Counted from the stretch's first letter, positions 410 through 34,430 are shown. The stretch is DNA of 35,071 nucleotides from an uncultured virus (IMG/VR IMGVR_UViG_3300034120_000663) (IMGVR_UViG_3300034120_000663), one strand, 5' to 3'. Numbers and translations are program-made. Notes: generated by a model from the sequence alone, not told the origin.

Positions 410-874
410 ATGAAGATCGTACGAGAAACCCGGCCAGACGGTCAGTATCTGGCCCGACTAGCAGATGAGTACGCCAATGCTAAAGCATTCGCAGAGAAGG
501 CCACTGCTCGCGCTGATGAACTCAAGTCAGAACTCGCCCGAGTGACCGACGAGTTGGGCCAGCAGGACAACAAGGGCAACATCTGGCTGCAAGCAGGCAA
601 GTACGACCTCAAGCGTGAGCGTCGACTGTCGCGCAGTCTGGATCTGTCTCATGCTGAGACATGGGCACGGGACAACGGAGTGTGGGGAGAAGTTTCCGAA
701 ATCAAGGCAGTCCTGAGCGAAGACCTGCTTCTTGGGTGGGCGTGGGATCACCCAGATAAGACGGATGAAGTCCAGGCTCTTTACAAAGAGAAAGAGGTCT
801 GGGCCTTCAAACTCTCTGAGGCCAAGGTGCCTCTTACGGAGACCAGCGCCACAGATGTGGGAGGACAGCCATGA
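410..874 (+). CDS. hypothetical phage protein, N-terminal coiled coil
   Basis: Strong SD (AAGGAGGAG) before ATG; ATGA overlap with next gene. Confidence 0.8.
   Translation: MKIVRETRPDGQYLARLADEYANAKAFAEKATARADELKSELARVTDELGQQDNKGNIWLQAGKYDLKRERRLSRSLDLSHAETWARDNGVWGEVSEIKAVLSEDLLLGWAWDHPDKTDEVQALYKEKEVWAFKLSEAKVPLTETSATDVGGQP
645..661. repeat. GTCTCA-N3-TGAGAC palindrome copy 1 (intragenic)
   Basis: TGTCTCA-TGC-TGAGACA. Confidence 0.85.
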
Positions 875-1107
875 GCGGTAAGCAGAGTCTCTTGGAGTGG
901 TTGCGCTGGATGGCCCTAATGGGCGTTGATAATGAAGTGGTCATGCTTCAGGGTGGAGCACTAGAGCGATGCGCTGAAGCAGCCGTTGAGATCGAACGGT
1001 TGCGGGCCGCTGGCGATGTGCTGTGTCGCTACGTCATCGAGAGTGGCCCTGGGTTGCATGACGACGAATCCGTTGTCGCCTACTGGCTGGAGGCCCGCCG
1101 TGAGTGA
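871..1107 (+). CDS. small hypothetical, 'EIERLRA' mosaic family
   Basis: GGAGG SD, ATGA overlap; contains AAVEIERLRA, ends EARRE. Confidence 0.7.
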   Translation: MSGKQSLLEWLRWMALMGVDNEVVMLQGGALERCAEAAVEIERLRAAGDVLCRYVIESGPGLHDDESVVAYWLEARRE

Positions 1108-1387
1108 GCGAGACATCGTGGAACGGCTGCGTGACGCGCACCAGACCGTACCGATCCCAGCCATTGCATCGCTCTACAGCAATGCTGCCGACGAGATCAA
1201 ACGGCTGCGTGCCGAGGTCAGGGGCTTTCAGGCTGAAAGCGGCTGCTGGCAGCGGTGGCACGACGCCGAGCGTGCCCTGGCCGACCAGTTGGCCGATGCG
1301 TTGCGAGATGAAGCCCGCAATCGCACACTGCGAGGGAGCGCTGCCCGAGCACTGGACGCCCACGAAGAGGCCCGCCGTGAGCGGTGA
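1100..1387 (+). CDS. small hypothetical, 'DIVERLRD/AADEIKRLRAE' mosaic family
   Basis: GTG at 1100 after GGAGG gives MSERDIVERLRD; similar to 23422-23700 and 20894-21160. Confidence 0.75.
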   Translation: MSERDIVERLRDAHQTVPIPAIASLYSNAADEIKRLRAEVRGFQAESGCWQRWHDAERALADQLADALRDEARNRTLRGSAARALDAHEEARRER

Positions 1388-1574
1388 GTGTGTTGCGTTC
1401 CAGTGGATCGGCCAGCCGATCACGTCATGCGATGGTTGCGGGAAGCCAGCATGGGAGCACGACTACTACCGAGGCTCTCCGTGGCAGGATTACCTCATCG
1501 CCACTTGGCTGGCGGATGGATTCATCAGCCGACAGCGAGCCGCAGCCCTACTCGTAGTGGAGGAGCGGTCATGA
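1377..1574 (+). CDS. small hypothetical with CxxC...H motif
   Basis: GTG in the junction linker gives MSGECVAFQWIGQ...CDGCGKPAWEH. Confidence 0.65.
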   Translation: MSGECVAFQWIGQPITSCDGCGKPAWEHDYYRGSPWQDYLIATWLADGFISRQRAAALLVVEERS

Positions 1575-1750
1575 GAAGTGGGCGGCACGACTTCGTCTGC
1601 GGCCAAGTCGCCTGGTTCGTGCGCCGCTGCTGGTGGGCGCTCAATCCATCACGAGCCGTGTGGTGCGACGACCTGGCGTGCAAGTGTAGGACATGCACCG
1701 TGGACGGGTGCTGGTGCCGGGAGGCCCGCTATGAGCAGCGCAATGACTGA
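1571..1750 (+). CDS. small Cys-rich hypothetical
   Basis: GGAGGAG SD and ATGA overlap; MRSGRHDFVC...CKCRTC...CWC. Confidence 0.55.
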   Translation: MRSGRHDFVCGQVAWFVRRCWWALNPSRAVWCDDLACKCRTCTVDGCWCREARYEQRND

Positions 1751-1844
1751 GGTGACGACCTTCTTGGCTGTCTGGCTGGTGTTCTCGGTCGTCGTCGGGC
1801 TTGTCGTCGGCCGCATCATCAAGGAGGAGGCCCGACGTGAGTAG
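1731..1844 (+). CDS. small single-TM membrane protein
   Basis: GGAGG then ATG at 1731; hydrophobic FLAVWLVFSVVVGLVVG; ends EEARRE. Confidence 0.6.
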   Translation: MSSAMTEVTTFLAVWLVFSVVVGLVVGRIIKEEARRE

Positions 1845-2019
1845 GTACTACTACGTATGCGCCACGTGTGGAAACAAGTGCGACACCATCGCCCCATCAG
1901 TTGTCATATGCACTCATAGACCCCTGAACAAACAGGGGTCGTCTCACACGGCAAAGAAACCAACACAATCCGTCGAAGTATCGAAGGAAGTATATGAGCA
2001 AGGGAAAGTACGTAATTAA
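1837..2019 (+). CDS. small zinc-ribbon-like hypothetical
   Basis: GTG in linker; YVCATCGNKC...ICTH. Confidence 0.6.
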   Translation: MSRYYYVCATCGNKCDTIAPSVVICTHRPLNKQGSSHTAKKPTQSVEVSKEVYEQGKVRN

Positions 2020-2272
2020 AAGCGGAGAACTGGCTGGCATGGCTTTGAGGTTTGCCAAGTTCAACAAGGGAACGATTGACTACCCGTTTCTGCGTTACAT
2101 GAACCCACGGTTCTCTAACGCCCCGAACACATACCGCATGCTCAGCACGTTGGTCAGGTACCAACTCCTACGAGAAGGAGAGAACTGCTACGTACTCACC
2201 TCCCTCGGAGAGGAAGCAGTGCGTCTGCTTGCCGAGCGTGACAGCAAAGTAACGGTAGGGATGACGACGTGA
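1994..2272 (+). CDS. putative winged-helix DNA-binding protein
   Basis: YRMLSTLVRYQLL...YVLTSLGEE resembles a wHTH recognition helix and wing. Confidence 0.55.
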   Translation: MSKGKYVIKSGELAGMALRFAKFNKGTIDYPFLRYMNPRFSNAPNTYRMLSTLVRYQLLREGENCYVLTSLGEEAVRLLAERDSKVTVGMTT

Positions 2273-2691
2273 GCGATATTGGATCAGGATGGCCTGACTA
2301 CCCAGGAAAGCGCCCGCCCAAGAACAGGGGCGCTGCTAAACCAACGACTCCGATCAGTGATCGACCCGACCTAAAGGGGAAGGTCTACAGAATCAAAGGA
2401 GTAGATGTTGAGTTGTTCACAATTGGCGAACTGGCTGGCGCAGTGCAGAGGAAGCCTGTTACACTGAGGATGTGGGAGTCAAGTGGGTGGATACCCAAGT
2501 CAAACTGGAGATCACCAACCCCACAAGGAACGCAGATTCCCGGCAAGACGACCCGTGGCCGAAGGCTGTACAGCAGGTCACAGGTAGAGTTGGTGGTCTC
2601 AGCAGTTGAGATGTTCAACATCAACGACCAGCGTCGTGCCGATTGGGCAGCGTTCAGAGAGCACATCAAAAAGCACTGGCTAGACCAGTAA
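2269..2691 (+). CDS. MerR-like HTH DNA-binding protein
   Basis: FTIGELAGAVQRKPVTLRMWESSGWIP...GRRLYSRSQV. Confidence 0.8.
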   Translation: MSDIGSGWPDYPGKRPPKNRGAAKPTTPISDRPDLKGKVYRIKGVDVELFTIGELAGAVQRKPVTLRMWESSGWIPKSNWRSPTPQGTQIPGKTTRGRRLYSRSQVELVVSAVEMFNINDQRRADWAAFREHIKKHWLDQ

Positions 2692-2726
2692 CTCCGCTAG
2701 ACGGAAACACACAAAGGAGATACGCC

Positions 2727-6315: not shown

Positions 6316-7323
6316 ATGTTGCAGGAAATTGACAGCATTATTGCTGACGTAAATAAGAAGTATGGAGATGACACCGTAGTAAAGGGTAGTCGTATCCATA
6401 AAGAACTGCCGCGTATTACGACTGGTGTTCTGTCCTTCGACCTAATGCTGGGAGGAGGGTGGCCCGTAAACCAGTGGTCAGAGATCATTGGTAATGAGTC
6501 ATCGGGCAAGACTGCCCTTGCGTACAAGACCATCGCAGCCAACCAGGCACTAGACCCAGAGTGGACAGCGATGTGGGTAGCGGCAGAGGAGTACGTCCCA
6601 GCCTATGCTGAAGCAATCGGTGTCGATCTAGACCGCTTGTGGGTCGTTGAGACCAACGTGATGGAGTACGTGTACGACATCTCTCTACGTGTGCTTGACA
6701 AGCGTGCAGTGGACTGCATTGTCATCGACTCGTTGCCTGCGCTCGTACCCTCAGTTGAGGACGAGAAGGAGATGATGGAGATGACGATGGGCCTTGGTGC
6801 CCGCATCACCGGAAAGTTCCTCCGCAAGTCAGGACGTGCACAGCGCAGGTCGTTGGTAGAGACCGAGCGTGGGTGCACTGGTTTGATCATCAATCAGTGG
6901 AGAGACAAGATCGGTGTCATGTACGGCGATCCGCGCACCACTCCTGGTGGTAAGGCCAAGAACTTCCATTACTTTGCCCGTGTAGAAGTAGCACGTGATG
7001 AGTGGATCACCGAGAAGGATGAGAAGGTCGGCCAGTCGATCCGTGCAAAGACCTTGAAGAACAAGACCTACCGTCCCTATCAGGATGCGGTCGTGGACTT
7101 CTTCTTTACTGACACGAAGGGGTTCTCCCTTGGGTCATTCGATGTCATCAAGGACATGGTCAACACTGCCATGTCGCTGGGCATCATCAACCGGCGAGGT
7201 GCCTACTACTCGTTTGCTGAGCAGCAGTGGCAGGGCAAAGACGCCACATACCAGGCATTCAGGGAAGACCTGGATATCCAGAACGCACTAAAAGAAGCAG
7301 TAATCGGAGCAGTACTGAAATGA
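6316..7323 (+). CDS. recA: RecA/UvsX recombinase
   Basis: TG.LSFDLMLGGG, Walker A GNESSGKT, VIDSLPALVP, INQWRDKIGVMYGDPRTTPGG. Confidence 0.96.
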   Translation: MLQEIDSIIADVNKKYGDDTVVKGSRIHKELPRITTGVLSFDLMLGGGWPVNQWSEIIGNESSGKTALAYKTIAANQALDPEWTAMWVAAEEYVPAYAEAIGVDLDRLWVVETNVMEYVYDISLRVLDKRAVDCIVIDSLPALVPSVEDEKEMMEMTMGLGARITGKFLRKSGRAQRRSLVETERGCTGLIINQWRDKIGVMYGDPRTTPGGKAKNFHYFARVEVARDEWITEKDEKVGQSIRAKTLKNKTYRPYQDAVVDFFFTDTKGFSLGSFDVIKDMVNTAMSLGIINRRGAYYSFAEQQWQGKDATYQAFREDLDIQNALKEAVIGAVLK

Positions 7324-7859: not shown

Positions 7860-8182
7860 ACAACAAGGGACAAGCAACAGCGTCTCATCTTGAGACAGAG
7901 CGAGAAGCCCTTCTTCTTGAAGCGGCCAGGATCATTACGGGCGACAGGAACACCAGTTACGATGAGCCTTTCGTTAACTTTCAAATAATCGCTCGTCTGT
8001 GGTCGGAGTACCTTGGGGCTAACATCAGTGTGCACGATGTTGCCGTGTTGAACATCCTTCAGAAGGTGTCTCGCATTATGGCATCTCCCGATAAGCGCGA
8101 CCATTGGGTTGACATCGCCGGATACGCAGCGTGCGGGTACGAGGCGCTTAGCATCGCTGAGTCCATCACACCGTTGTGGTAG
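7856..8182 (+). CDS. DUF6378 domain protein
   Basis: A..IITGDR..SY..P..NF..IA.LWS.YLG...K.SR....DHWVDIAGYAAC. Confidence 0.8.
   Translation: MNNKGQATASHLETEREALLLEAARIITGDRNTSYDEPFVNFQIIARLWSEYLGANISVHDVAVLNILQKVSRIMASPDKRDHWVDIAGYAACGYEALSIAESITPLW
7882..7896. repeat. GTCTCA-N3-TGAGAC palindrome copy 2 (intragenic, near 5' end)
   Basis: GTCTCA-TCT-TGAGAC. Confidence 0.85.
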
Positions 8183-16326: not shown

Positions 16327-16896
16327 ATGTTCAAGCAACTCATGTTTAGCGCTGCGCTAGTCACTACGCCGATTCAGTGCGGCAACCTTGTCCCAGAAGT
16401 GTCGGGTAGTGCAGTAGATACAGTCAACTCTCTCCCGTACTCGTGGGGTTCGGAAGAACCGGCCGTTCAGGCGTATCGAATCGTTGCAGCGGAGCGAGGG
16501 TGGACAAAGAATGCCATTGATGCATGGGAGCCAATGGTCTCTGACATCATGCGTGGAGAGACTGGCTATTGCTGGAATGTCCGTAGAGGCGCACGACTCG
16601 GCAACCACGGCCAGGACTGTCTCATCGTGAGACAGGGTCGGGGAAGCGACTCAGGATTCGGCCAGGTGATCAGGAAGTACCATTACGGCCCTGGTAAGTA
16701 CCTTTGCGTGAAAGAGGGTCTCTGCTCAGCAGACGCAATCGTCAGTTCCCCGTGGAACTCAATGGTCTCTTTAGTTTCTGCCATTGAGCATCATGGAAAG
16801 CAGCCGTGGTGCTACTCAGCAAGCGCCCGCAAACTCCATAAAACGTGCAAGTTTGCTCCGAAACTAAACCCCCTAGACCCTGCCTGGGCAGTATAA
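16327..16896 (+). CDS. secreted lytic transglycosylase/lysozyme-like protein
   Basis: Signal-like N-terminus; IMRGETG (catalytic Glu), DSGFGQV (GLxQ-like), G.QPW; GGAGG SD. Confidence 0.7.
   Translation: MFKQLMFSAALVTTPIQCGNLVPEVSGSAVDTVNSLPYSWGSEEPAVQAYRIVAAERGWTKNAIDAWEPMVSDIMRGETGYCWNVRRGARLGNHGQDCLIVRQGRGSDSGFGQVIRKYHYGPGKYLCVKEGLCSADAIVSSPWNSMVSLVSAIEHHGKQPWCYSASARKLHKTCKFAPKLNPLDPAWAV
16617..16635. repeat. GTCTCA-N3-TGAGAC palindrome copy 3 (intragenic)
   Basis: CTGTCTCA-TCG-TGAGACAG. Confidence 0.85.
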
Positions 16897-22931: not shown

Positions 22932-22958
22932 CACGCTGTCTCACCATGAGACAACGTG
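22932..22958. repeat. palindrome copy 4 (extended hairpin)
   Basis: CACGC-TGTCTCA-CCA-TGAGACA-ACGTG. Confidence 0.9.
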
Positions 22959-24159: not shown

Positions 24160-24186
24160 GATGTGTTTCTCCTTGTTGATAGTGAA

Positions 24187-25561: not shown

Positions 25562-25588
25562 GAGGTGGTTCTCCTTGTTGTTGGTTGT

Positions 25589-25603
25589 GTCTCATCATGA
25601 GAC
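25589..25603. repeat. palindrome copy 5
   Basis: GTCTCA-TCA-TGAGAC, intergenic. Confidence 0.9.
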
Positions 25604-25610
25604 GGGGGAA

Positions 25611-25641
25611 GGGAGGGGCTACTCCTGTAGCAGCCCCTCCC
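25611..25641 (-). terminator. GC-rich hairpin after the AAA gene
   Basis: GGGAGGGGCT...AGCCCCTCCC 10-bp stem; weak U tail. Confidence 0.5.
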
Positions 25642-25650
25642 AGGTGTCAA

Positions 25651-26841: not shown

Positions 26842-26923
26842 GATGTGGTTCTCCTTGTGTGGCTGTCTTTGACGATTGTAACTGATGGGTACGGGTAATA
26901 ACAACTCAGTATGAGTTATTTGT

Positions 26924-28891
26924 TCACTTGCCGATGAAGTCGGTGATGAGGCTGCTCACGATGGTGGGCATACGGCTGAGATCGTCCAGTGCGAGCGCCT
27001 CTGTGCATGCCTTGCTGAACTGGTCGATGTTGACTCCTTCACCAAACCCGAACAGGAAGATGTGGCGATTCTCCTCTTCCAGCGCCGTCAAGAGGGCGAT
27101 GTCGGTGTATGACCACTGTCCATCGGTCAGTACGAACACCAAGTGATGCCTCTTGTCGTTGCCCTGGTACTGGGCAGCAACTAGTGCATCCTTCGGGCTG
27201 GTTCCTCCGTAAGAGGTCAGTAGGACTGGAGTTGCTTCGTCGTCCTTGCCCCACAGGAGGGTGGCACCGTCGCTCCACAGCACTGTGTTGCACGGGACGT
27301 TGACTTCCCTACAGCCCTTGTGGATGGCATACGCTGCCACCGACAAGTTCGGCATGTGGGAATGCATGCTGCCACTGATATCAAGCAGCACACTCACGGA
27401 GAGGGACGTTGCTTCGTTGCCGTGATCGTCCATGCTGCGGAAGAACTCCCTGCTTCCCGGTTGACGGGTTCGGTACTGGAATGGGTTCACCACTCCTCTC
27501 GTTGACCGCTCAACCCACACCGGGTCTTCATCCGCTGTGACCGTACGGAAGGTCTCGCTGAACGCTGCTGCGAGGATTTCGCTCCGACAATCATCAAGTG
27601 GCAGCAACTTGTCCGTGTTGGCACGGAGGGTGCCGAACGAATCTCGCACCGAACTTGAGAGTTCGATCAGTTCAGACACGAACACGTTGTTGTCGAAGAG
27701 TTCCTTCGATGCGTGGTCATCGGCCTTGGATACCTCAGCGTCCAACTGGCTGTATGCGGAACTGAGGTCTTCCTCGTCGGAGTCATTTCCTGGCGAGTAT
27801 CCGCCACCTTGCTGACCGCTCTGCTCCTGGCTGTCACCGTCGCTGTCACCGTCGCTGTCACCGTCAGCGTCGCTGTCACTATCGTCACCTGCGTCTGCAA
27901 CAACAGAGCGAGCAACAGCCTCGTCCACAGCCTCATCGACACTCTTGCCGCTCTCATGGTTTGAAGTATTCATCTCATAGTGCTGCGGTTTGACGTCTCC
28001 GCCCATCAGATTCATGTGCCCTCCTGTCACCCGGCACATGTGCTCCAAGAGATCGATGGCTGCATCGACCATTTCCTGGGAGGTCTTCGCCCGAATGTAT
28101 GCGTCGATGATGCCCTTGACTTCCTTGGCAGCGTCTTCTCCATACGTCTTCACATACACTTTGCGAGCGGCCTTACGGAGTGACAGCGGAAGATAACGCC
28201 GACCAGCGACGAGGACGTACGACGCTGCTGACATTCCGCAGATGTACTTGGTGACCAGCCTGGTCAGGTACGCACCGATGATGGGTGAATCCTGTACCAG
28301 ACGCATCTCTTGCCGCTGATCCTCAAGAACATTCAAGGGCAGCAGAACATCTGCCCATGTAGGACTGAAGTACCTGTCGTTCTTACTGGCCTCAACTGAG
28401 CGACGACTGAGTTCGCTCTGAATATAGGCCCAGTGCTTGTCGTACAACAGCGTGGGTGGAGTGCTGTACATCACATGACCGACTTCGTGGTACACCGCCG
28501 CCTTGATCATTTCAAGGCAGTTGCGCAGTCCACGCATATCAGTATCGGCACTCACCACAGCCCTATGCAGGTCGTGAACGGGCCAAGACACTTTGATCGA
28601 CTTGAAGTCCGTCATTGCAGACATCGTTTCGGCCGTCGACGGGTCGATGTAGATGGGAACAGTGATACCCCACGAAGCAGCAACTGCCTTCGTGATCGAA
28701 CGCACGCCATGAAGCAGGGCGTACTCCTTGTTGGAGGTACGAGCGGAGTTGGAATCCACCAATTGCTGCATCTCACGCAGACCGTCGCTCTTCTGCTCCA
28801 AGAACGTTTCGGACTCGTCTTTCATGGCTTGGAGTGCTCGCTCCAAGATTCGCTTACGCACTGCTGCTACTGGATCGGCTTTCTTTGGCAT
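26924..28891 (-). CDS. CobT-like HExxH metallopeptidase plus VWA protein
   Basis: HEVGH, NVLEDQRQE, acidic linker, MIDAS DISGSM, GGT, LTDG. Confidence 0.9.
   Translation of the reverse strand: MPKKADPVAAVRKRILERALQAMKDESETFLEQKSDGLREMQQLVDSNSARTSNKEYALLHGVRSITKAVAASWGITVPIYIDPSTAETMSAMTDFKSIKVSWPVHDLHRAVVSADTDMRGLRNCLEMIKAAVYHEVGHVMYSTPPTLLYDKHWAYIQSELSRRSVEASKNDRYFSPTWADVLLPLNVLEDQRQEMRLVQDSPIIGAYLTRLVTKYICGMSAASYVLVAGRRYLPLSLRKAARKVYVKTYGEDAAKEVKGIIDAYIRAKTSQEMVDAAIDLLEHMCRVTGGHMNLMGGDVKPQHYEMNTSNHESGKSVDEAVDEAVARSVVADAGDDSDSDADGDSDGDSDGDSQEQSGQQGGGYSPGNDSDEEDLSSAYSQLDAEVSKADDHASKELFDNNVFVSELIELSSSVRDSFGTLRANTDKLLPLDDCRSEILAAAFSETFRTVTADEDPVWVERSTRGVVNPFQYRTRQPGSREFFRSMDDHGNEATSLSVSVLLDISGSMHSHMPNLSVAAYAIHKGCREVNVPCNTVLWSDGATLLWGKDDEATPVLLTSYGGTSPKDALVAAQYQGNDKRHHLVFVLTDGQWSYTDIALLTALEEENRHIFLFGFGEGVNIDQFSKACTEALALDDLSRMPTIVSSLITDFIGK
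27830..27880. repeat. 12-bp tandem repeat (GCTGTCACCGTC) encoding a DSDG linker
   Basis: About four imperfect units. Confidence 0.7.
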
Positions 28892-28907
28892 GGTTCTCCT
28901 CATTGTC

Positions 28908-28924
28908 TGTCTCATTCTGAGACA
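28908..28924. repeat. palindrome copy 6
   Basis: TGTCTCA-TTC-TGAGACA just upstream of the SD. Confidence 0.9.
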
Positions 28925-28935
28925 CGGGCGATCTG

Positions 28936-29029
28936 ACGACCGATCTCCCCACTGGCGTTCCCAACGCAAGGCCAGTGGGGAGGATGCCACCAAGAGAGAA
29001 AGGTCTCTGGTTCGGTCGTATGGCATCCT
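28936..29029 (-). ncRNA. candidate pseudoknotted RNA element
   Basis: Four complementary pairs in 94 nt, two of them crossing; strand assumed from the flanking genes. Confidence 0.5.
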
Positions 29030-29034
29030 TACGC

Positions 29035-29268
29035 TTAGAGGTAGATGACCTCTTCGATATCACTGATCTTCATCAACGGGCCACGATGGTTGAAGTCGAT
29101 TCCGTCGAAGAAGCGCATACGAACGGTGTCGTGGAGTACGTCGACATCATCGATCACACCTTCGTGCTGCACACCATTCTCGTAGACGAAGCGCACTGCG
29201 TACCCTTTCAGATATTGCAGCACGGCAGCAGGGCCAAGGGCGGAATCCTTGGAGAAGGACAGGATCAT
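29035..29268 (-). CDS. small beta-barrel-like hypothetical protein
   Basis: GGAGGT SD, ATGA overlap. Confidence 0.65.
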   Translation of the reverse strand: MILSFSKDSALGPAAVLQYLKGYAVRFVYENGVQHEGVIDDVDVLHDTVRMRFFDGIDFNHRGPLMKISDIEEVIYL

Positions 29269-29684
29269 GACGCCACCTCCGCATCGTCGTGGTGCATCAG
29301 GTACTCGCTGCGGATGAGTTGCGCGATCTCCGTGAACGTCAACTCACACCCGTCGTTCAGGGTGGTGAGTTCGGTACGACCGCCGTCGTACTCCACAGAC
29401 GGGATAGCAGATGCGATGCCCAGCCATTCGACCACCTCATATGGCAACACGGAGGAAAGTTTAGGGCTGCCGTACCTAACGGCCCACTTCGGTGAAGCCC
29501 ACGGATCAACCTCGTTGACTTCGTGCTTCGTCACGGCACCGTCCTTGTACGCCAGATCACATGCCACACCGAGACAACAGAACAGGTTGTTGTCGCTGTT
29601 ATGCAGGTAGCCGACGCCCTGCTGATATTCGCCGGATTCAAGTGCTTCCACCCAGCGGAGGATGTTGTCCTTGTTGACGCTCAC
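29265..29684 (-). CDS. conserved phage hypothetical protein
   Basis: WVEAL.SGEY.QG...L...FCCLGVAC...LND...F.EIA motif common in phages. Confidence 0.8.
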   Translation of the reverse strand: MSVNKDNILRWVEALESGEYQQGVGYLHNSDNNLFCCLGVACDLAYKDGAVTKHEVNEVDPWASPKWAVRYGSPKLSSVLPYEVVEWLGIASAIPSVEYDGGRTELTTLNDGCELTFTEIAQLIRSEYLMHHDDAEVAS

Positions 29685-30001
29685 GATGCCACCTTCGCCA
29701 TCCGACGCAGACGACGGATCTCTGCGCCCATGTCGGCCACTGCCTTGAACTTCTGGCGGAACTCCGCCTTCTCGTAGAAGGGAAGGTTGGCGAGTGCATC
29801 ACTGCGGCTCTCAGGCCAGCCGATGTACTCCAGCAGGGCATCGTACGACTTGGAGGGCAGGGTCTCAGCGAAGTCGCTGTGCATGACTGTGACACAGCGG
29901 CCTTCGTGGATGTCCACGATGTGATCCAACTCGTTCGCCGCCAGGATGGCACGGCTGAGACGGTCAGCGTCTCGCGGGTCGATGGGCTTGGTGCGCTTCA
30001 T
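29681..30001 (-). CDS. hypothetical protein
   Basis: AAGGAGAACC SD; ends AEIRRLRR. Confidence 0.7.
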   Translation of the reverse strand: MKRTKPIDPRDADRLSRAILAANELDHIVDIHEGRCVTVMHSDFAETLPSKSYDALLEYIGWPESRSDALANLPFYEKAEFRQKFKAVADMGAEIRRLRRMAKVAS

Positions 30002-30077
30002 TGGTTCTCCTTTTCCAGGTGTATGAATGTAGTCGGTATGGATAGTTGATTGCAATTCAGATGGCAGATATTTCTGC

Positions 30078-30566
30078 CTACTTGCAGGCTTCCTTGAAGA
30101 GGCGGTCGCCCAGCCCCATGTCGCCACGCTCGTACGCCTTGGCGCACGCCTCCCACAGCGTCTGTGTCCTACGCAGTTCGTCCTTCTCAGCGAGAACCGA
30201 AGCGTACACATCAGCGTGCGCACCGAACTCTCCCCACTTGTTGATGATTTCATACATCAGGCTGTTCTCATCGGACACCGTGGTCTCAACAGTCGAAGGC
30301 TGGGCGTGATCAGGGGTGAAGGCGTTCTCCGCAAGGATGGCCTCCCAGTGCGAATACGTATAGTTGAAGCGGTACGCATCATCTTCGTAAACGACTGTGT
30401 ATCCAGCAGCCAGCATACGATCGCGCAGTGCCTCAGCGGAGGTGTCTGCTCCGACCACCACATCGGCGTTGTGATCCAACGCCACGACCACCTCAACGTC
30501 TGTCCAGCCGAACTGGTCGATGATGTCGTTGCTGGCCAGCAAGTCATGGATGATTACGGTCTTCAT
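30078..30566 (-). CDS. acidic hypothetical protein
   Basis: CAAGGAGAAC SD. Confidence 0.75.
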   Translation of the reverse strand: MKTVIIHDLLASNDIIDQFGWTDVEVVVALDHNADVVVGADTSAEALRDRMLAAGYTVVYEDDAYRFNYTYSHWEAILAENAFTPDHAQPSTVETTVSDENSLMYEIINKWGEFGAHADVYASVLAEKDELRRTQTLWEACAKAYERGDMGLGDRLFKEACK

Positions 30567-30583
30567 GTTGTTCTCCTTGTGTG

Positions 30584-30895
30584 TCATTGTTCGATTGCAT
30601 TGTTCAGGGCAGTCTGCATCAGCCTCCAGCCACGCTCGGTCAGGATCTCGGGGATGTCTTTGCGCCACTCCCACGAATCAGCCACCAAGTCCCACACTTC
30701 GTCGGGCATCTCGCCGGGTTCTTCGCCAGGAGAAAGAGGCATGGACTCTTGCCATTCCTTCTCCACATCGGCTCGGGTGAACACGGTGCCCGACCAGCCG
30801 AACTGGTAGTGCAACTCCCAGAACACGGTGATAGCCTCGTCCTCGGTCAGACTGCCGATGCACTCCTTGATGGTGTCGAAAGCAATTTCGCTCAT
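30584..30895 (-). CDS. acidic hypothetical protein
   Basis: CAAGGAGAAC SD. Confidence 0.75.
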   Translation of the reverse strand: MSEIAFDTIKECIGSLTEDEAITVFWELHYQFGWSGTVFTRADVEKEWQESMPLSPGEEPGEMPDEVWDLVADSWEWRKDIPEILTERGWRLMQTALNNAIEQ

Positions 30896-30922
30896 GGTTT
30901 GTTCTCCTTGTTGTTGATTCGG

Positions 30923-31303
30923 TCAGCCGTAGACGATCTCTCCGAAGAGACCCAACTGCACGATGCAGTCGGCATCGGAGGCATCGAAGTCCCAGTCGTC
31001 CTCGTTACGAACGACCATCGGGGGCTTCTCACCGCTCCAGCCGATAGCGTTTGCGTTCTTCACCGCCAGCCGATACCCACGGCTGATGGTTTGAGAGTCG
31101 ATACGGTACTTTCCCCCGTCCACCTCGTCTTCGATGACGGCGTAGAAGGTCTCGTAGTCCTCTTTACCGTAACCGTCCGACCAGCGATATATCTCGCAGG
31201 TCGACCAGTAGCCGATGCCGCCCTCCAGAGCGGTGACGAAGATGGAGTGGTACATCTTCCGGTGCTCACTGATCTTCTTCTCGGTGTTGATTTCTCCGGT
31301 CAT
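30923..31303 (-). CDS. conserved phage hypothetical protein
   Basis: TALEGGIGYW...DA.DAD.IVQ.GLFGEIVYG motif; GAGAGGA SD. Confidence 0.8.
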   Translation of the reverse strand: MTGEINTEKKISEHRKMYHSIFVTALEGGIGYWSTCEIYRWSDGYGKEDYETFYAVIEDEVDGGKYRIDSQTISRGYRLAVKNANAIGWSGEKPPMVVRNEDDWDFDASDADCIVQLGLFGEIVYG

Positions 31304-31345
31304 GGTTCCTGTCCTCTCGTTGTCGTTGCGATTCACTATCGACAA

Positions 31346-31382
31346 ACGGTGGCGATGTCTCACCATGAGACACCGCCACCGT
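31346..31382. repeat. palindrome copy 7 (17-bp extended hairpin)
   Basis: ACGGTGGCG-A-TGTCTCA-CCA-TGAGACA-C-CGCCACCGT. Confidence 0.92.
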
Positions 31383-31386
31383 CCTG

Positions 31387-32943
31387 TCACTTGTAGGTGG
31401 CCAGCAGGGCATCCATGATGCTCTTGGCACCCAGGTCGGCATCCTTGCCGTCGATGATGTTGTTGACCACCAACGCCTTCTCATTGAGCAGGTTCCAGAG
31501 GCGGTCGTCGACCGACGACTTGCCGTCGATGCCATCGGCCAGCACGATGGTCGACATGACATCGTTCACCTGGCCGATGCGGTGCAGGCGGTCTTCGACC
31601 TGCTGCAACTGCCCAGGAGTCCAGGGCAGTTCGACCACGATGATGTTGCTGGCAGCGGTGAGCGTGAAGCCCACACCAGCAGCGTCGATGTTGCCGACCA
31701 TCACACGGGCCTTGCCCGACTGGAACGCATCGACAGCGGCCTGCTTCTGCGTAGCGTTCATCGAACCGTCGATGACGACCGGCTGGTGCTTGATCAGCCC
31801 GGTCACCAGCCCGTCGATGACGGCCTTGTGATGACCGACCACGAACACCTGCTCGCCCTCGTCCAGCAGGTCGTTCGCCATGTCGACTGCCGACTTGACC
31901 TTGCCCTTGCCGGTCACCTGACGGAGGACGTTCAGGAGGACGATGGCCTGCGCCACATCCGACAGGTTGTAGTTGTCGTTGCCGGTGCGCTCACGCATGA
32001 ACTGCTCCAGGTTCTTCTCCGCAGCACGAATGGCGATGCGAGCCTCCTGATCAAGGTTCACGGCCACGGTCATGCGGCCCTTGTTCGGGAGGGTCAGCAC
32101 ATCGGCACGAAGACGGCGAATCATCACCCGGCTGGTGAGCATCTTGTGCAGTTCCTTCACGTTGCTGGCACCACGGTAGGTGACACCGAAGCCATTGCTC
32201 TGCGGATCGCAGTAGCGGTGCATGTACTCAGCACGGGTGCGAGCGATGCGGTCGGTGACACGGGCGATGGCGAGCGACCCCCACAGTTCGGAGGGACGGT
32301 TGAGGATGGGCGTGCCGGTGAGAGCGAGGCTCACGGCATCGTCGGCCAGTGCCCGTGCGATGATCTCGCAGGCCCGTGCACGCTGCGCCGGGTGCTGATC
32401 GGCCAAGCCCTTCATGCGGTGGGCCTCGTCCACCACGAACCCCTTCCAGGGGTGCTGGGCGAGGTCTGCGCCGACGTTGCGGCCCGACTTCTCGTCCTTA
32501 CGCATGGCCCAGTAGGCGATGATGCTGTCGGGGACGACCAGCACATCGACGTTGGGCACAGCGGTCACCTTGCGGCCCGTCAAGGTGCCCACGGTGCGGT
32601 GCGGAACCGCACGCTGCACCTCTCGCACCCAGTTGAGCGTGAGCGACGGAGGGCACACGATCAGTGCCGGGTAGGCATCGACTGCCTCCAGGGAACCAAT
32701 GGCGGCGAGGGTCTTGCCGACACCAGGCTCGTCGGCCACGACCAGTCGACGGTGACCGTCCTTGACGGCCTGGATGACGACGTTCTGGTGGGCCATCGGA
32801 GCCAGGCCCAGGCCCAGCCCCTCCACCGGCTCAGCGGTGGGCTTGCTGCTGATGGCGGAGATATCGGGCCAGTCGTTGCCCTTGGTCTCCTTGGCCTTGA
32901 TCTGTTCGGCCTGTGCCTTGACGGCTGCGAAGATGTCGATCAC
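31387..32943 (-). CDS. SNF2-family helicase (SMARCAL1/HARP-like)
   Basis: ADEPGVGKT, VVDEAH, LTGTPILNRP.EL, AAGVGFTLTAA, QVEDRLHRIGQ. Confidence 0.93.
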   Translation of the reverse strand: MIDIFAAVKAQAEQIKAKETKGNDWPDISAISSKPTAEPVEGLGLGLAPMAHQNVVIQAVKDGHRRLVVADEPGVGKTLAAIGSLEAVDAYPALIVCPPSLTLNWVREVQRAVPHRTVGTLTGRKVTAVPNVDVLVVPDSIIAYWAMRKDEKSGRNVGADLAQHPWKGFVVDEAHRMKGLADQHPAQRARACEIIARALADDAVSLALTGTPILNRPSELWGSLAIARVTDRIARTRAEYMHRYCDPQSNGFGVTYRGASNVKELHKMLTSRVMIRRLRADVLTLPNKGRMTVAVNLDQEARIAIRAAEKNLEQFMRERTGNDNYNLSDVAQAIVLLNVLRQVTGKGKVKSAVDMANDLLDEGEQVFVVGHHKAVIDGLVTGLIKHQPVVIDGSMNATQKQAAVDAFQSGKARVMVGNIDAAGVGFTLTAASNIIVVELPWTPGQLQQVEDRLHRIGQVNDVMSTIVLADGIDGKSSVDDRLWNLLNEKALVVNNIIDGKDADLGAKSIMDALLATYK

Positions 32944-32987
32944 GGTAGTGGTTCTCCTGTTGATTCGTGGATTGATGAATGTACACG

Positions 32988-33006
32988 GTGTCTCATCGTG
33001 AGACAC
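32988..33006. repeat. palindrome copy 8
   Basis: GTGTCTCA-TCG-TGAGACAC. Confidence 0.9.
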
Positions 33007-33010
33007 ACAA

Positions 33011-33026
33011 TGTGACGAACGTCACA
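33011..33026 (-). promoter_or_regulatory. palindrome TGTGACGTTCGTCACA (CRP-box-like), copy 2
   Basis: Perfect TGTGA-N6-TCACA overlapping the stop codon. Confidence 0.5.
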
Positions 33027-33942
33027 CCTTGCTGGCGCAATCCGGCCCGATGCCAGCCGCACGGCTGTCCTCGTCGGTCAGGTGGCGACCGCAGCGGCAG
33101 CAGTAGCCCAGTTCCTGGCCGTATCGATATGCGGCGGTGCGGATATCGCTGTCGGTCAGTCGCTTGAGCACTTCGACCGCCTGCTCCAGGCCGACGCCGT
33201 AGTCGGGGTGACCGCCGATGACACGGCAAACACGCACACCGTTCGCCACCCCACGGTGCGAAGTGATGCTCACCGTGAAGAAGTCCAGGTCGTTGTTGCC
33301 GGTGACACTGGGCAGGGCGAACCGCAGCACCGGGTGCTGGTGGTGGCTCATGCCCAGGGCATCGAACGCCTGCCGTGCCAGGCCCACGGCCACGCCGGTC
33401 AGCAGCCGAAGCCGCTCTTCCTCTGCCTTGGCGGCAGCGGCCTGTGCGGCCTCTTCGGCCTGACGCTGCGCCGGGTCGCTGGTGGCGCAGGGCATGCACC
33501 AGGCAGACCACACACCATGAACCTGCACGGCGAGGTCGACACCGGCCACCGTGGGCTTGCTGCACTGGCGGCACTTGCCGCCGAACCGGGTGGTCATCAC
33601 CCGGTCGTGCTGGGGCAGGCCGGGGTACGGCGAGACCACCGGGCCGGTGGGCACCAGCACCTTGCTGGCCATCAGCAGGCCGTTGATCACGACCGATGCG
33701 GCCTGCTTGCTGACTTCAGCCCACGCTTCGCTCAGCACCTTCGGCAGGTCGGTCAGCGTGCCGATGACAGCCTGCGCAGCGGCGAACGACTCAGGGGTCG
33801 ACTGCGCCGCCTTCTCAGTGATATCGGCCACCAATTGCAGGGCGAAGCCGTGCTGCCTGTCAGTGCAGGTGTACTGCACCGGAGCGGCGACGGTCTGCAT
33901 GTTGTAGCGGCCGTAGCGGCCACGGTTGCGGTTGTAGGTCAT
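33022..33942 (-). CDS. DUF6011 zinc-ribbon protein
   Basis: YG...G.C.RCGR.LTD..S...GIGP.C; second Cys motif FGGKCRQC...CMPC. Confidence 0.85.
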   Translation of the reverse strand: MTYNRNRGRYGRYNMQTVAAPVQYTCTDRQHGFALQLVADITEKAAQSTPESFAAAQAVIGTLTDLPKVLSEAWAEVSKQAASVVINGLLMASKVLVPTGPVVSPYPGLPQHDRVMTTRFGGKCRQCSKPTVAGVDLAVQVHGVWSAWCMPCATSDPAQRQAEEAAQAAAAKAEEERLRLLTGVAVGLARQAFDALGMSHHQHPVLRFALPSVTGNNDLDFFTVSITSHRGVANGVRVCRVIGGHPDYGVGLEQAVEVLKRLTDSDIRTAAYRYGQELGYCCRCGRHLTDEDSRAAGIGPDCASKV

Positions 33943-33978
33943 GGTGTGGTTCTCCTTGTCGGTTGCGGATTCACTATC

Positions 33979-33993
33979 GTCTCACAATGAGAC
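33979..33993. repeat. palindrome copy 9
   Basis: GTCTCA-CAA-TGAGAC. Confidence 0.9.
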
Positions 33994-33996
33994 AGG

Positions 33997-34113
33997 TCAG
34001 TCGTCCAGGTCGGCGTTGGCTTGGGCCTGCAAGCGGCGGCATTCGCCGCAAGCACACTCCCAAAGGGACGGCAGGTCTTTGCCGGGGGTGACGATGCATT
34101 CGGTGACGGACAT
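33997..34113 (-). CDS. 38-aa Cys-rich protein
   Basis: CAAGGAG SD; MSVTEC...CACGEC. Confidence 0.6.
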   Translation of the reverse strand: MSVTECIVTPGKDLPSLWECACGECRRLQAQANADLDD

Positions 34114-34133
34114 GGTGATTCTCCTTGTGTTGA

Positions 34134-34352
34134 TCAGGCGGTGAGCGAGAAGGCAGCGGCCTTCTCCAGCAGGATGGTCAGGGCGGCGACCTGCTCCAGG
34201 GACAGGTCGATGCGGATGTGCTCGTCGCCCTCCCAGAGGCGAACGATGACACCAGGCGTGATCACCTTGCCGGTGATCTCCAGCGAGATGTCGCCCTGGT
34301 TCAGCAGGTACGAGCCGGGGACGATGGTCTCTGCGATGGTGGTGCGATCCAT
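34134..34352 (-). CDS. hypothetical protein
   Basis: GGAGG SD then ATG (MDRTTIAE). Confidence 0.7.
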   Translation of the reverse strand: MDRTTIAETIVPGSYLLNQGDISLEITGKVITPGVIVRLWEGDEHIRIDLSLEQVAALTILLEKAAAFSLTA

Positions 34353-34401
34353 GATGGGGTTCCTCCGTAGGTGTCGGTGGACTGAGCAGTCCCGGCCACG
34401 C

Positions 34402-34430
34402 CCCGACCGTCTCATGGTGAGACAGCCGGG
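34402..34430. repeat. palindrome copy 10 (extended hairpin)
   Basis: CCCGACC-GTCTCA-TGG-TGAGAC-AGCCGGG. Confidence 0.9.

What the first reader, a model, noticed from the sequence alone, without database searches (positions are those of the whole stretch)
645..34430. Ten exact copies of the palindrome GTCTCA-N3-TGAGAC across both arms
Seen: 15-bp cores start at 646, 7882, 16619, 22938, 25589, 28909, 31357, 32990, 33979 and 34409. The 12 arm bases are invariant and the 3-nt spacer varies. Chance expectation at uniform composition is about 35071/4^12 = 0.002 copies. Seven copies lie between a gene end and the next SD in the - arm; three are inside + arm coding sequence. Inference: constant arms with a free spacer suggest a dimeric protein site acting genome-wide, either a stoperator-like roadblock or a DNA organisation/partition site. 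It resembles parS (TGTTTCA-CG-TGAAACA) with one extra spacer base and a T>C change per arm. I do not recognise it as a described motif.
Basis: partly seen in the sequence, partly recalled or inferred. Interest (0 to 1): 0.82.

Follow-up and report, generated by a model that had tools for sequence, protein, structure and literature searches.

The report
Repeated 17-bp operator-like palindrome in phage
A lake-water phage of actinobacteria carries at least eleven exact copies of one short DNA palindrome, mostly just in front of genes in its leftward early arm; they look like docking sites for a paired DNA-binding protein, and similar repeats in other phages still have no known job.

Summary
There are 10 exact GTCTCA-N3-TGAGAC sites (0.02 expected) and no 1-2 mismatch variants. 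An 11th site lies just beyond the window in a 99.9% identical record.

- **Position:** Six sites are fully intergenic and a seventh overlaps only the last 12 nt of an ORF. All seven lie 17-56 nt before start codons that head gene blocks in the leftward arm.
- **Geometry:** Six of 10 extend to TGTCTCA-N3-TGAGACA. This 7-3-7 layout, with half-sites 10 bp apart, matches the NtrC consensus and the unexplained 17-bp repeats of Cluster O mycobacteriophages.
- **Elsewhere:** The same dyad sits beside GAF-AAA+-HTH_8 regulator genes in 7 of 12 actinobacterial loci. It is multi-copy in Bdellovibrionales and in at least three unrelated viral contigs.
- **Absent from:** two syntenic relatives and typical actinobacterial genomes.
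- **Not parS:** no ParB or HTH_8 gene was found in about 62 of 68 kb of the phage.
- **RNA layer:** At three sites the stem extends 6-13 pairs through G·U pairs on the sense strand only.

Best reading (about 45%): operators for a dimeric, probably phage-encoded protein at transcription-unit junctions. This is a new variant of a known but unexplained kind of repeat.

The parts
646..660 (.). Dyad site 1 (t-GTCTCA-TGC-TGAGAC-a). It lies inside + arm ORF 410-874, which is conserved in relatives that lack the site.
   Evidence: The ORF has a 42-43% identical tblastx match in G020/L528 and G019.
7882..7896 (.). Dyad site 2, 26 nt inside the DUF6378 gene 7856-8182. It falls before the Pfam domain, which starts at residue 19.
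   Evidence: The block 7320-8182 has no counterpart at the syntenic place in G020/L528; G019 has a DUF6378-like stretch elsewhere.
16619..16633 (.). Dyad site 3, inside + arm ORF 16327-16896 (no family hit).
22932..22958 (-). Dyad site 4 (15-mer at 22938-22952) with 6 further pairs on the sense (-) strand. It lies 35 nt before the ATG of 22027-22902.
   Evidence: RNA fold -18.2 kcal/mol, z = -4.8.
25589..25603 (.). Dyad site 5, 27 nt before the ATG of 24932-25561.
25604..25650 (-). G+C-rich inverted repeat (terminator-like hairpin) between the end of the AAA_5 gene 25651-26841 and site 5.
   Evidence: Read from the sequence. Not folded separately, and not flagged by the U-tract terminator scan.
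28909..28923 (.). Dyad site 6, 17 nt before the ATG of the CobT-like gene 26924-28891 and 7 nt before its Shine-Dalgarno sequence.
31344..31384 (-). Dyad site 7 (15-mer at 31357-31371) at the apex of a helix with 13 further pairs on the sense strand. It lies between the helicase gene end (31387) and gene 30923-31303.
   Evidence: RNA fold -32.4 kcal/mol, z = -8.1.
32990..33004 (.). Dyad site 8, 46 nt before the start of the SNF2 helicase gene 31387-32943.
33012..33025 (.). Second palindrome GTGACG-N2-CGTCAC, just upstream (sense direction) of site 8. Other copies are at 10397 and 26125.
33979..33993 (.). Dyad site 9, 36 nt before the ATG of 33022-33942. One natural strain carries C>G at 33983 in the arm.
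34399..34433 (-). Dyad site 10 (15-mer at 34409-34423) with 10 further pairs on the sense strand, 56 nt before the ATG of 34134-34352. The spacer varies between strains (TGG or TGA).
   Evidence: RNA fold -28.9 kcal/mol on the sense strand against -16.3 on the antisense strand.
1994..2272 (+). Candidate binder (a lead only): a 92-aa winged-helix protein in a block of small genes (871-2380) that has no match at the corresponding position in the two syntenic relatives, which also lack the motif.
   Evidence: Pfam HTH_45 E = 0.0085, below cut-off. ESM Atlas features 0.91 with wHTH clusters and structure TM about 0.7. No tblastx match in G019 or G020. Only one relative found, at 71% identity.
2269..2691 (+). 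Second candidate: a 140-aa protein with a MerR-type HTH. It is conserved in relatives that lack the motif, so it is less likely to be the binder.
   Evidence: Pfam MerR_1 E = 3.6e-5. Match of 39% in G019.

Best explanation
The sites are operators, that is, binding sites on double-stranded DNA for a sequence-specific protein dimer with one helix-turn-helix per half-site. They are placed at the junctions between successive transcription units of the leftward non-structural arm, with a few more inside the rightward arm. Bound protein would set how much transcription starts at, or reads through, each junction. It could repress, block as a roadblock, or activate (class II-type).

The protein is most likely phage-encoded. 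The lineage-specific 92-aa winged-helix protein 1994-2272 is the only concrete candidate.

Shown:
- exact repetition of the site;
- its position in front of genes;
- its geometry;
- the same dyad next to HTH_8 regulator genes in bacteria.

Inferred:
- that a protein binds the phage sites;
- which protein it is;
- the sign of the effect.

At three junctions the dyad has also become the tip of a long sense-strand RNA hairpin. I read this as a terminator or RNA-end stabiliser built around the pre-existing palindrome.
For: 1. **Repetition.** 10 exact sites against 0.02 expected, with no degenerate copies. An 11th lies in the 99.9% identical record G001, and there are none in its further 26 kb of structural genes. 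None occur in the 6.5 kb to the left of the window.
2. **Position.** 6 of 10 sites are fully intergenic where 6.6% of the DNA is intergenic (P = 1.3e-5). The seven - arm sites lie 17-56 nt before the start codon of the first gene of a block. Site 5 follows a terminator-like inverted repeat and site 8 follows another palindrome.
3. **Geometry.** The site is a 7-3-7 palindrome of 17 bp with invariant arms. This matches the NtrC consensus TGCACCAnnnTGGTGCA (PMC8743547 passage).
4. **The same dyad is a protein site in cells.** In 7 of 12 actinobacterial loci it lies in the divergent region beside a gene with GAF (6 of 7), AAA+ lid and HTH_8 domains.
5. **Bdellovibrionales.** The order carries 167 copies in 31 genomes, against 4 copies of the reversed control pattern.
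6. **Described counterpart in phages.** Cluster O phages have over 30 copies of TGTTCGG-N3-CCGAACA with invariant arms. They are denser in the leftward operon, and the authors predict a dimeric DNA-binding protein (PMC4351075, sections read).
7. **Lineage specificity.** Syntenic relatives G019 and G020 (DNA polymerase 54-57% identical) lack the motif and show no match to the gene block holding the wHTH candidate.
8. **Not a common host factor.** Typical actinobacterial genomes do not carry the motif: 6 of 150 genomes against 5 of 150 for the control pattern.
Against: - No binding protein is identified. No HTH_8 was found at E<=5 in five records, and a profile of the six motif-linked bacterial HTH_8 domains scores at best E = 3.1 on all phage frames.
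- The wHTH candidate is an orphan (2 proteins). It has no relative in the other motif-bearing phages (phmmer at E<=1).
- No sigma-70-like promoter accompanies the sites. The distance from the dyad to -10-like hexamers read by eye is not constant, so the promoter relation is unproven.
- Three sites have helix extensions that work only with G·U pairs on the sense strand. A DNA-binding function does not need these.
- The spacer is orientation-biased (pyrimidine first on the + strand in 11 of 11 sites), which is unexpected for a symmetric dimer.
- One natural strain has an arm mutation at site 9, so single sites are dispensable.
- Spacers of the bacterial sites are A/T-rich, whereas the phage spacers are not.
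Confidence: 0.45

Rival explanations
1. The working form is RNA. GUCUCA-NNN-UGAGAC is the apical stem-loop of intercistronic hairpins in the sense transcripts. It would serve as terminator, 3'-end stabiliser, processing site or docking site for an RNA-binding protein, and the DNA palindrome is only its template.
For: - At 3 of 8 - arm sites the helix continues for 6, 13 and 10 pairs on the sense strand when G·U is allowed, but for only 1, 1 and 0 pairs on the other strand or with Watson-Crick pairs alone. The chance of 6 or more extra pairs is 0.0036 per site.
- These three fold at -18.2, -32.4 and -28.9 kcal/mol, with z-scores of -4.8 to -8.1. All three are weaker on the antisense strand.
- One G002 site, after the major capsid gene, has 9-10 further pairs.
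- The sites lie between a gene end and the next ribosome-binding site.
Against: - The bare core is a weak hairpin (-6.8 to -8.1 kcal/mol; z not significant at 28909, 646 and 7882).
- Over all 11 sites the sense strand folds better in only 6.
- Invariant stem bases with a variable loop, and no covariation or G·U inside the core, are the opposite of what RNA hairpins usually show.
- There is no U-tract and no Rfam family.
- The identical dyad is associated with HTH_8 DNA-binding regulators in bacteria.
Confidence: 0.2
2. The sites are read by a host protein, a GAF-AAA+-Fis-type-HTH (NtrC-family-like) regulator. The phage would then couple its early genes to, or titrate, a host metabolic regulator, as phi29 does with Spo0A and Spo0J sites (recalled).
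For: - The same 17-mer lies beside such regulator genes in 7 of 12 actinobacterial loci from 10 genomes.
- No phage-encoded HTH_8 was found.
- Unrelated phages share the dyad but share no detectable regulator.
- Syntenic relatives of different G+C content (about 47-49%), which may have other hosts (an inference), lack it.
Against: - Only 6 of 150 sampled genomes of that phylum have any copy, the same as the control pattern (5 of 150). Few hosts would therefore own the regulator.
- Bacterial sites have A/T-rich spacers, whereas the phage sites do not.
- These are specialised catabolic regulators, partnered with soluble di-iron monooxygenase or amidohydrolase operons. That is an odd choice for global phage control.
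- The host is unknown.
Confidence: 0.1
3. The sites are centromere-like or genome-organisation sites for a ParB/KorB-type protein.
For: - The half-site TGTCTCA differs from the recalled parS half-site TGTTTCA at one base.
- Cluster O phages with the analogous repeat encode a ParB-like protein, gp90 (annotation; PMC4351075).
- About 29 kb of the 97-kb genome were not seen.
Against: - No ParB_N domain at E<=1 in G001, G031, G032, G002 or G007.
- No ParB-like Pfam hit in the ORFs scanned.
- The spacer is 3 bases, not 2.
- The sites sit in front of genes rather than in a cluster.
- No sign of lysogeny or plasmid maintenance genes in the parts seen.
Confidence: 0.05
4. The palindrome is a hairpin-type promoter for a phage RNA polymerase (N4-like), or has another single-strand DNA role such as a priming signal.
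For: - A 6-7 bp stem with a 3-nt loop matches the recalled geometry of N4 early promoters.
- The sites lie immediately upstream of ribosome-binding sites (7 nt at 28909). The same holds in G007, where no other promoter room is left.
- The spacer is biased to one genome strand.
Against: - The loop is not conserved.
- No RNA polymerase gene was seen in 68 kb.
- A perfect palindrome gives no direction.
- The sites also occur inside genes.
Confidence: 0.04
5. The repeats are selfish or recombinational, acting as short module-boundary sequences with no regulatory role.
For: - Sites 2 and 3 lie in lineage-specific genes, and site 1 lies 225 nt from an insertion boundary.
- The Cluster O paper reports some indels flanked by its repeats.
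Against: - Strain-level rearrangement joints in four runs lie at about 20.3-21.0 kb and 23.56-23.70 kb, not at a dyad.
- The flanks are not conserved and show no target duplications.
- The strong bias to positions in front of genes is unexplained on this view.
Confidence: 0.04

Closest known systems
17-bp repeats of Cluster O mycobacteriophages (Corndog; TGTTCGG-N3-CCGAACA), PMC4351075
   Same: - Two 7-bp inverted arms separated by 3 bp, invariant arms and variable centre.
- The site begins TGT and ends ACA.
- Dispersed copies, denser and mostly intergenic in the leftward non-structural operon, with about a third inside genes.
- Not present in the host genome.
- Function unknown; a dimeric DNA-binding protein is predicted. 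I found 29 copies in the 44.8 kb of Corndog that I fetched.
   Different: - Different arm sequence.
- 34 copies in 70 kb there, against 11 in about 68 kb here.
- A/T-rich spacers there.
- No shared proteins with this phage beyond chance-level hits.
- No sense-strand hairpin extension is reported there.
- That motif is reported as private to the cluster, whereas this one recurs in unrelated phages and bacteria.
NtrC-family (Fis-type HTH_8) enhancer or operator sites, e.g. NtrC TGCACCAnnnTGGTGCA (PMC8743547)
   Same: - 17-bp 7-3-7 palindrome with TG at the outer and CA/TG at the inner edges.
- The exact dyad of this phage lies beside GAF-AAA+-HTH_8 regulator genes in 7 of 12 actinobacterial loci.
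   Different: - No HTH_8 protein is detectable in the phage.
- No sigma-54-type promoters are enriched (23 found, 20.6 expected).
- Eleven copies sit close to start codons rather than one or two upstream enhancers.
Stoperators of Cluster A mycobacteriophages; other multi-site phage repressor systems (P1 C1 operators and phiC31 conserved inverted repeats are recalled, not checked)
   Same: Many copies of one short site spread over a phage genome, largely in short intergenic gaps, and bound by one regulator.
   Different: - Stoperators are asymmetric and oriented with transcription (PMC4351075 discussion).
- They belong to temperate phages with an identified repressor. No repressor, integrase or lysogeny module was seen here.
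parS/ParB, and dispersed KorB or Spo0J sites on plasmids and phages (recalled)
   Same: A palindromic site of similar length whose half-site differs at one base from parS, with dispersed copies.
   Different: - The spacer is one base longer.
- No ParB_N domain was found.
- The sites are tied to gene starts.

Membership tests
Cluster O-type dispersed 17-bp dyad repeats | Two 7-bp inverted arms separated by exactly 3 bp | tested here: met
   10 of 10 sites have 6-bp arms with a 3-bp spacer, and 6 of 10 have the full 7-bp arms.
Cluster O-type dispersed 17-bp dyad repeats | Arms invariant, centre variable, few or no degenerate copies | tested here: met
   There are no sites with 1-2 mismatches and eight different spacers among the 10 sites.
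Cluster O-type dispersed 17-bp dyad repeats | Many copies through the genome, denser and intergenic in the leftward non-structural operon | tested here: met
   8 of 11 sites lie within 12.2 kb of the leftward arm, 3 lie in about 25 kb of the rightward arm, and none lie in 26 kb of structural genes. The copy number is lower than in Corndog.
Cluster O-type dispersed 17-bp dyad repeats | The sequence TGTTCGG-N3-CCGAACA and kinship with Cluster O phages | tested here: not met
   The arms are different, and tblastn of this phage's ORFs against 44.8 kb of Corndog gave only chance-level hits.
NtrC/Fis-type HTH_8 operator | 17-bp 7-3-7 palindrome | tested here: met
NtrC/Fis-type HTH_8 operator | A cognate HTH_8 protein encoded by the element | tested here: not met
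   PF02954 gave no match at E<=5 in G001, G031, G032, G002 or G007. A custom profile scored at best E = 3.1. Window 15-20.9 kb was covered only by ORF scans at E<=0.01. About 29 kb of the genome were not seen.
NtrC/Fis-type HTH_8 operator | Sigma-54 promoter downstream | tested here: not met
   23 loose matches against 20.6 expected, and none consistently beside the sites.
parS/ParB partition site | 16-bp palindrome of the parS type (consensus recalled) | tested here: not met
   There is one base change per arm and a 3-base rather than 2-base centre.
parS/ParB partition site | ParB (ParB_N) gene in the same element | tested here: not met
   No match at E<=1 in five records and none in the ORF scans. 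The unseen part of the genome leaves this open.
Cluster A stoperator | Asymmetric site oriented with transcription | tested here: not met
   The arms are perfectly symmetric. Only the spacer is biased, and the bias follows the genome strand rather than the transcription direction.
Cluster A stoperator | Immunity repressor and temperate life style | tested here: inconclusive
   No repressor or integrase family appeared among the ORFs scanned. The genome is incomplete.
Intrinsic terminator or structured RNA element | Stable hairpin on the transcribed strand | tested here: inconclusive
   Strong sense-strand-specific stems occur at 3 of 8 - arm sites. The other sites have only the weak 6-7 bp core.
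Intrinsic terminator or structured RNA element | U-tract after the stem, or a known RNA family | tested here: not met
   None of the 13 terminator-like hits is at a dyad. There was no Rfam match at E<=1 apart from two chance microRNA hits.
N4-type hairpin promoter | Short stem with a 3-nt loop, conserved loop bases and a virion RNA polymerase (features recalled) | tested here: inconclusive
   The stem and loop sizes fit. The loop bases are not conserved. No RNA polymerase family was seen in the parts available.

The most novel reading that the evidence does not exclude
A lytic freshwater actinophage has planted eleven or more copies of the operator of a host enhancer-binding-type regulator (GAF sensor, AAA+ domain, Fis-type HTH) at the heads of its early transcription units. 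A host small-molecule-sensing regulator would then gate, or be titrated by, the infecting genome. The same trick would have arisen independently in unrelated phages that carry the identical dyad.
Probability: 0.1. Interest if true: 0.8.

Novelty: new variant of a known kind. Interest (0 to 1): 0.55.

Why it matters
Genome-wide dyad repeats have been known in Cluster O mycobacteriophages since 2015 and are still unexplained. This phage is a second, unrelated example, and it adds three handles that the first lacks:
- The dyad has the geometry of NtrC-type sites and is found next to HTH_8 regulator genes in bacteria, which points to the type of protein that reads it.
- The dyad recurs in unrelated phages and is multi-copy across Bdellovibrionales, so its reader can be sought by comparison.
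- Three copies carry a strand-specific RNA signature, so DNA-level and RNA-level roles can be separated by experiment.

If the sites mark transcription-unit junctions, they give a ready map of the early regulatory architecture of an uncultured lake phage.

Tried and rejected
- **Near relatives in GenBank phages:** none by megablast. The best protein matches are about 33% identical.
- **Own assembly:** not held.
- **Closer relatives.** Helicase homologues of 50-85% identity exist, but their contigs could not be fetched. The viral scan returned at best 44%. Of 79 helicase loci, only the 2 near-identical ones carry the motif.
- **Shared regulator among motif-bearing phages:** none by tblastx, blastp or phmmer.
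- **HTH_17 link.** G007 has four HTH_17 genes, but G001, G002, G008 and G016 have none above the cut-off.
- **Pairs of sites in G004, G005 and G006.** These turned out to be coding repeats, a 40-bp direct repeat and origin-type iterons inside a replication gene, not the same phenomenon.
- **REP/RAYT idea for Bdellovibrio.** One site lies 215 nt from an IS200-like gene, but there is no second copy around it.
- **Relative L276.** It has three copies of a 45-bp promoter-like module with GACTCA-N5-TGAGTC, which is a local repeat and not a genome-wide one.
- **Relative L528/L530.** It has a tandem cluster of GTGTCAC-N2-GTGACAC, which looks like an origin or iteron array. No such cluster lies left of the window.
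- **Sigma-54 promoters:** not enriched.
- **Sigma-70-type promoters:** 5 found against 5.9 expected, and none on the sense strand at a dyad.
- **RNA runs:** no RNA holder listed.
- **Population data.** Four DNA runs were laid. There was too little variation for a conservation test. Two of the 11 substitutions in one strain's 4.7-kb contig fall in dyads, one in an arm and one in a spacer.
- **phiC31 literature search:** gave nothing usable.
- **MimR binding-site search:** gave nothing usable.

Full report
**1. The observation**

The window holds exactly ten copies of GTCTCA-N3-TGAGAC at the stated coordinates. Dinucleotide-preserving shuffles give 0.02 on average, and none of 100 reaches ten. 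Relaxing the search to two mismatches adds nothing, although 2.66 near-matches are expected by chance. The motif is therefore all-or-nothing.

It is slightly wider than reported. T precedes it in 7 of 10 sites and A follows in 9 of 10, so 6 of 10 are the 17-mer TGTCTCA-N3-TGAGACA. Isolated half-sites are not enriched.

The spacer is not quite free. Its first base on the + strand is a pyrimidine in all ten sites, and in an eleventh site outside the window. I cannot explain this bias.

**2. What the genome is**

- The window is part of a large phage genome. The identical helicase protein lies on a contig of 97 kb.
- The rightward arm (1-18.4 kb) encodes DNA polymerase I, a RecA/UvsX-like recombinase, a Cas4-type exonuclease, two junction resolvases (one RusA-like), a SpoVS-like protein, a DpdA/TGT-like enzyme, a WhiB-like protein and a glycosyltransferase.
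- The leftward arm (18.5-35 kb) encodes many small proteins, a second WhiB, a CobS/CobT-like pair and an SNF2 helicase.
- The two WhiB genes, together with best matches to Streptomyces and Gordonia phages, point to an actinobacterial host.
- All 24 listed public runs that hold the stretch are labelled lake water metagenomes.
- No GenBank phage is close.
- Record G001 is 99.9% identical over window 23545-35071 and continues 26.7 kb further. It adds one more site just past the window end. There are none in the following 26 kb, which hold tail-fibre and terminase genes.
- Record L523 extends the window 6.5 kb to the left and adds no site.
- In about 68 kb of this phage there are thus 11 sites. 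Eight lie within 12.2 kb of the leftward arm.

**3. Where the sites lie**

On a gene model checked by GC3, 6.6% of the window is intergenic. Even so, six of ten sites are fully intergenic (P = 1.3e-5), and a seventh overlaps only the last 12 nt of a putative ORF.

Each of these seven lies 17, 27, 35, 36, 46, 53 or 56 nt upstream of the start codon of the first gene of a block. That gene usually has a strong AAGGAGAACC-type ribosome-binding site.

Site 25589 follows a G+C-rich inverted repeat that comes straight after the preceding gene. Site 32990 follows a different palindrome, GTGACG-N2-CGTCAC.

The arrangement therefore reads: gene end, hairpin, dyad, ribosome-binding site, next gene.

The three rightward-arm sites are inside ORFs.
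- One ORF (410-874) is conserved in relatives, so it is a real gene.
- A second site lies 26 nt into a DUF6378 gene, ahead of the conserved domain.

**4. Evidence for reading as double-stranded DNA**

The arms are invariant, the centre varies, and the half-site centres are 10 bp apart. This is the classic footprint of a helix-turn-helix dimer. The 7-3-7 layout equals the NtrC consensus TGCACCAnnnTGGTGCA (passage in PMC8743547).

I then asked where else the 17-mer occurs. In the species-representative genomes the scan stopped at 125 loci, of which 80 were shown. Among the shown rows, Bdellovibrionota (12), Acidobacteriota (10) and Actinomycetota (12) stood out (44 of the 80 rows were inspected).

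I followed ten actinobacterial genomes, which hold 19 sites in all. I fetched 12 loci and left five sites out.
- In 7 of the 12 loci the dyad lies in the divergent region next to a regulator gene with an AAA+ lid and an HTH_8 (Fis-type) domain. Six of the seven also have a GAF domain.
- The partner operon is a soluble di-iron monooxygenase, an amidohydrolase or, in one locus, an FAD-dependent oxidoreductase operon.
- The other five loci showed no such gene in the 3 kb (2.3 kb for one short contig) examined.

My result extends it to another phylum. The dyad is therefore very probably a protein site in cells, read by a Fis-type HTH.

**5. The closest described case**

Cluster O mycobacteriophages carry more than 30 copies of TGTTCGG-N3-CCGAACA.
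- It has 7-bp inverted arms with a 3-bp centre, and the arms are invariant.
- In Corndog, 14 of 34 copies are intergenic, 10 lie near 5' ends of genes and 10 are internal.
- The intergenic copies are concentrated in the leftward operon.
- The site is absent from the host genome.
- The function is unknown, and the authors predict a dimeric DNA-binding protein (PMC4351075; passages and section 8 read).
- Later papers that quote the repeat are genome announcements by their listing.

The present motif has the same architecture and the same TGT...ACA ends, but it sits in an unrelated phage. No paper in the searchable library holds the present sequence. The only near hit is the NadQ consensus with the core CTCA-N3-TGAG.

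**6. Phage-encoded or host-encoded reader?**

For a phage protein:
- Two syntenic relatives (DNA polymerase 54-57% identical; G019 of 60 kb and G020) lack the motif. They have one site with 1 mismatch and one with 2 mismatches respectively, which is chance level.
- They show no match to a block of five small genes (871-2380). This block contains a 92-aa protein that the ESM Atlas places among winged-helix regulators (score 0.91; 9 of the 10 best family hits in one clan; TM about 0.7) and that Pfam weakly calls HTH_45.
- Typical genomes of the phylum do not carry the dyad: 6 of 150 genomes have it, against 5 of 150 for the reversed control pattern.

Against a phage protein:
- The winged-helix protein is an orphan.
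- No HTH_8 or ParB_N domain is detectable in the phage records.
- The dyad is multi-copy in viral contigs that share no regulator with this phage: G002 has 7 sites in 30.8 kb, G007 has 9 in 53 kb, G008 has 3, and a Ruminococcaceae-binned contig has 6 (comparisons).

That recurrence is not a search artefact.
- The reversed palindrome of the same composition gives 68 loci on 68 contigs in the whole viral collection, none multi-copy.

I therefore keep a host-regulator reading as a live minority view.

**7. The RNA layer**

Folding 39-nt windows shows that the bare core is a weak hairpin of about -7 kcal/mol. Three leftward-arm sites, however, form long helices of -18.2, -32.4 and -28.9 kcal/mol.

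Counting uninterrupted pairs outward from the 15-mer gives the following:

| Site | Further pairs, sense strand with G·U | Further pairs, other strand or Watson-Crick only |
|---|---|---|
| 22938 | 6 | 1 |
| 31357 | 13 | 1 |
| 34409 | 10 | 0 |

The chance of six or more further pairs is 0.0036 per site. The antisense folds of these three are weaker by 2.7, 4.7 and 12.6 kcal/mol.

Because G·U pairs exist on one strand only, this is evidence for selection on the sense transcript at these three junctions. Across all 11 sites, however, the sense strand is the better folder in only six. The core itself shows no covariation. There is no U-tract and no Rfam family.

My reading is that a hairpin was needed at these gene ends and was built around the palindrome already present. 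The reverse reading, in which the RNA hairpin is the primary function, is the main rival.

**8. What does not fit**

- No sigma-70-like promoter accompanies the dyads. The distance to -10-like hexamers that I read by eye varies from 0 to 16 nt, so I cannot say whether the protein would repress, activate or block.
- The spacer bias follows the genome strand in both arms, which a symmetric dimer does not explain.
- One strain carries C>G in an arm of site 33979 and G>A in the spacer of site 34409, so individual sites can be lost.

**9. Verdict**

- The finding is real and far beyond chance.
- It is best described as an operator-like dyad array marking transcription-unit junctions of the early arm.
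- It is not parS.
- It belongs to the same unexplained kind as the Cluster O repeats.
- It adds a likely reader class (the Fis/NtrC-type geometry), recurrence across unrelated phages and an RNA-level overlay.
- The mechanism remains inferred.

Noticed in passing
G013 and 30 further genomes of its order (handles G183-G212): GTCTCA-N3-TGAGAC is a multi-copy chromosomal motif across Bdellovibrionales. 23 of 31 genomes carry it, 167 sites in all and up to 35 per genome, against 4 sites of the reversed control. In one B. bacteriovorus genome most of the 20 sites are intergenic, two lie before subtilase genes, and one lies 8 nt before a GG-N10-GC sigma-54-type promoter. The reader protein is unknown.
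   Followed up: partly
L537-L554 (actinobacterial genomes G021-G030): In 7 of 12 loci the 17-mer lies between a divergently transcribed AAA+-HTH_8 regulator gene (GAF domain in 6 of 7) and a soluble di-iron monooxygenase, amidohydrolase or FAD-dependent oxidoreductase operon. It is probably the operator of these sigma-54-independent NtrC-like regulators. I found no paper giving their binding site.
   Followed up: partly
window 10397-10410, 26125-26138, 33012-33025: There is a second exact palindrome, GTGACG-N2-CGTCAC, in three copies, and five copies in the 17.5-kb locus L275 of G001. One copy lies directly upstream of dyad site 32990.
   Followed up: no
window 14212-15735: A 507-aa DpdA/queuine tRNA-ribosyltransferase-like gene (PHROG E = 8e-32) suggests 7-deazaguanine modification of the phage DNA.
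   Followed up: no
window 20.3-23.7 kb: Lake strains differ by deletions or replacements of 2.5-3.4 kb, with joints at about 20.3-21.0 kb and 23.56-23.70 kb. These remove a WhiB gene, gene 22027-22902 and dyad site 22938. A repeat of about 130 bp (20899-21028 against G001 2358-2487, 85% identical) may mediate this.
   Followed up: no
L276 1741-1757, 3340-3356, 3878-3894: A relative (helicase 44% identical) has three copies of a 45-bp module. The module runs GACTCA-N5-TGAGTC, 12 nt, TAGACT, then an ATG 6-7 nt later. These look like leaderless promoters with an operator whose half-site differs from the present one at one base.
   Followed up: partly
L528 2793-2886 and L530 3045-3130: Syntenic relatives carry a tight cluster of four GTGTCAC-N2-GTGACAC palindromes (L530 has two, plus half-sites), about 5 kb upstream of the region matching the window start. 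This is probably an origin or iteron array. No counterpart lies in the 6.5 kb left of the window.
   Followed up: partly
G007 26.7-32.5 kb; G011 contig C54; G014 contig C49: In a 53-kb viral contig and in Oscillospiraceae/Ruminococcaceae-binned contigs the dyad is longer (AAACTGTCTCA-N3-TGAGACAGTTT or ATGTGTCTCAC-G-GTGAGACACAT). It sits 5-10 nt before ribosome-binding sites of successive genes, twice as tandem pairs. G007 also has four adjacent HTH_17 genes.
   Followed up: partly
all 11 sites of this phage: The spacer's first base is a pyrimidine on the + strand in 11 of 11 sites, and the middle base is C in 7 of 11, in both arms. The sites therefore share one orientation relative to the genome rather than to transcription.
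   Followed up: no
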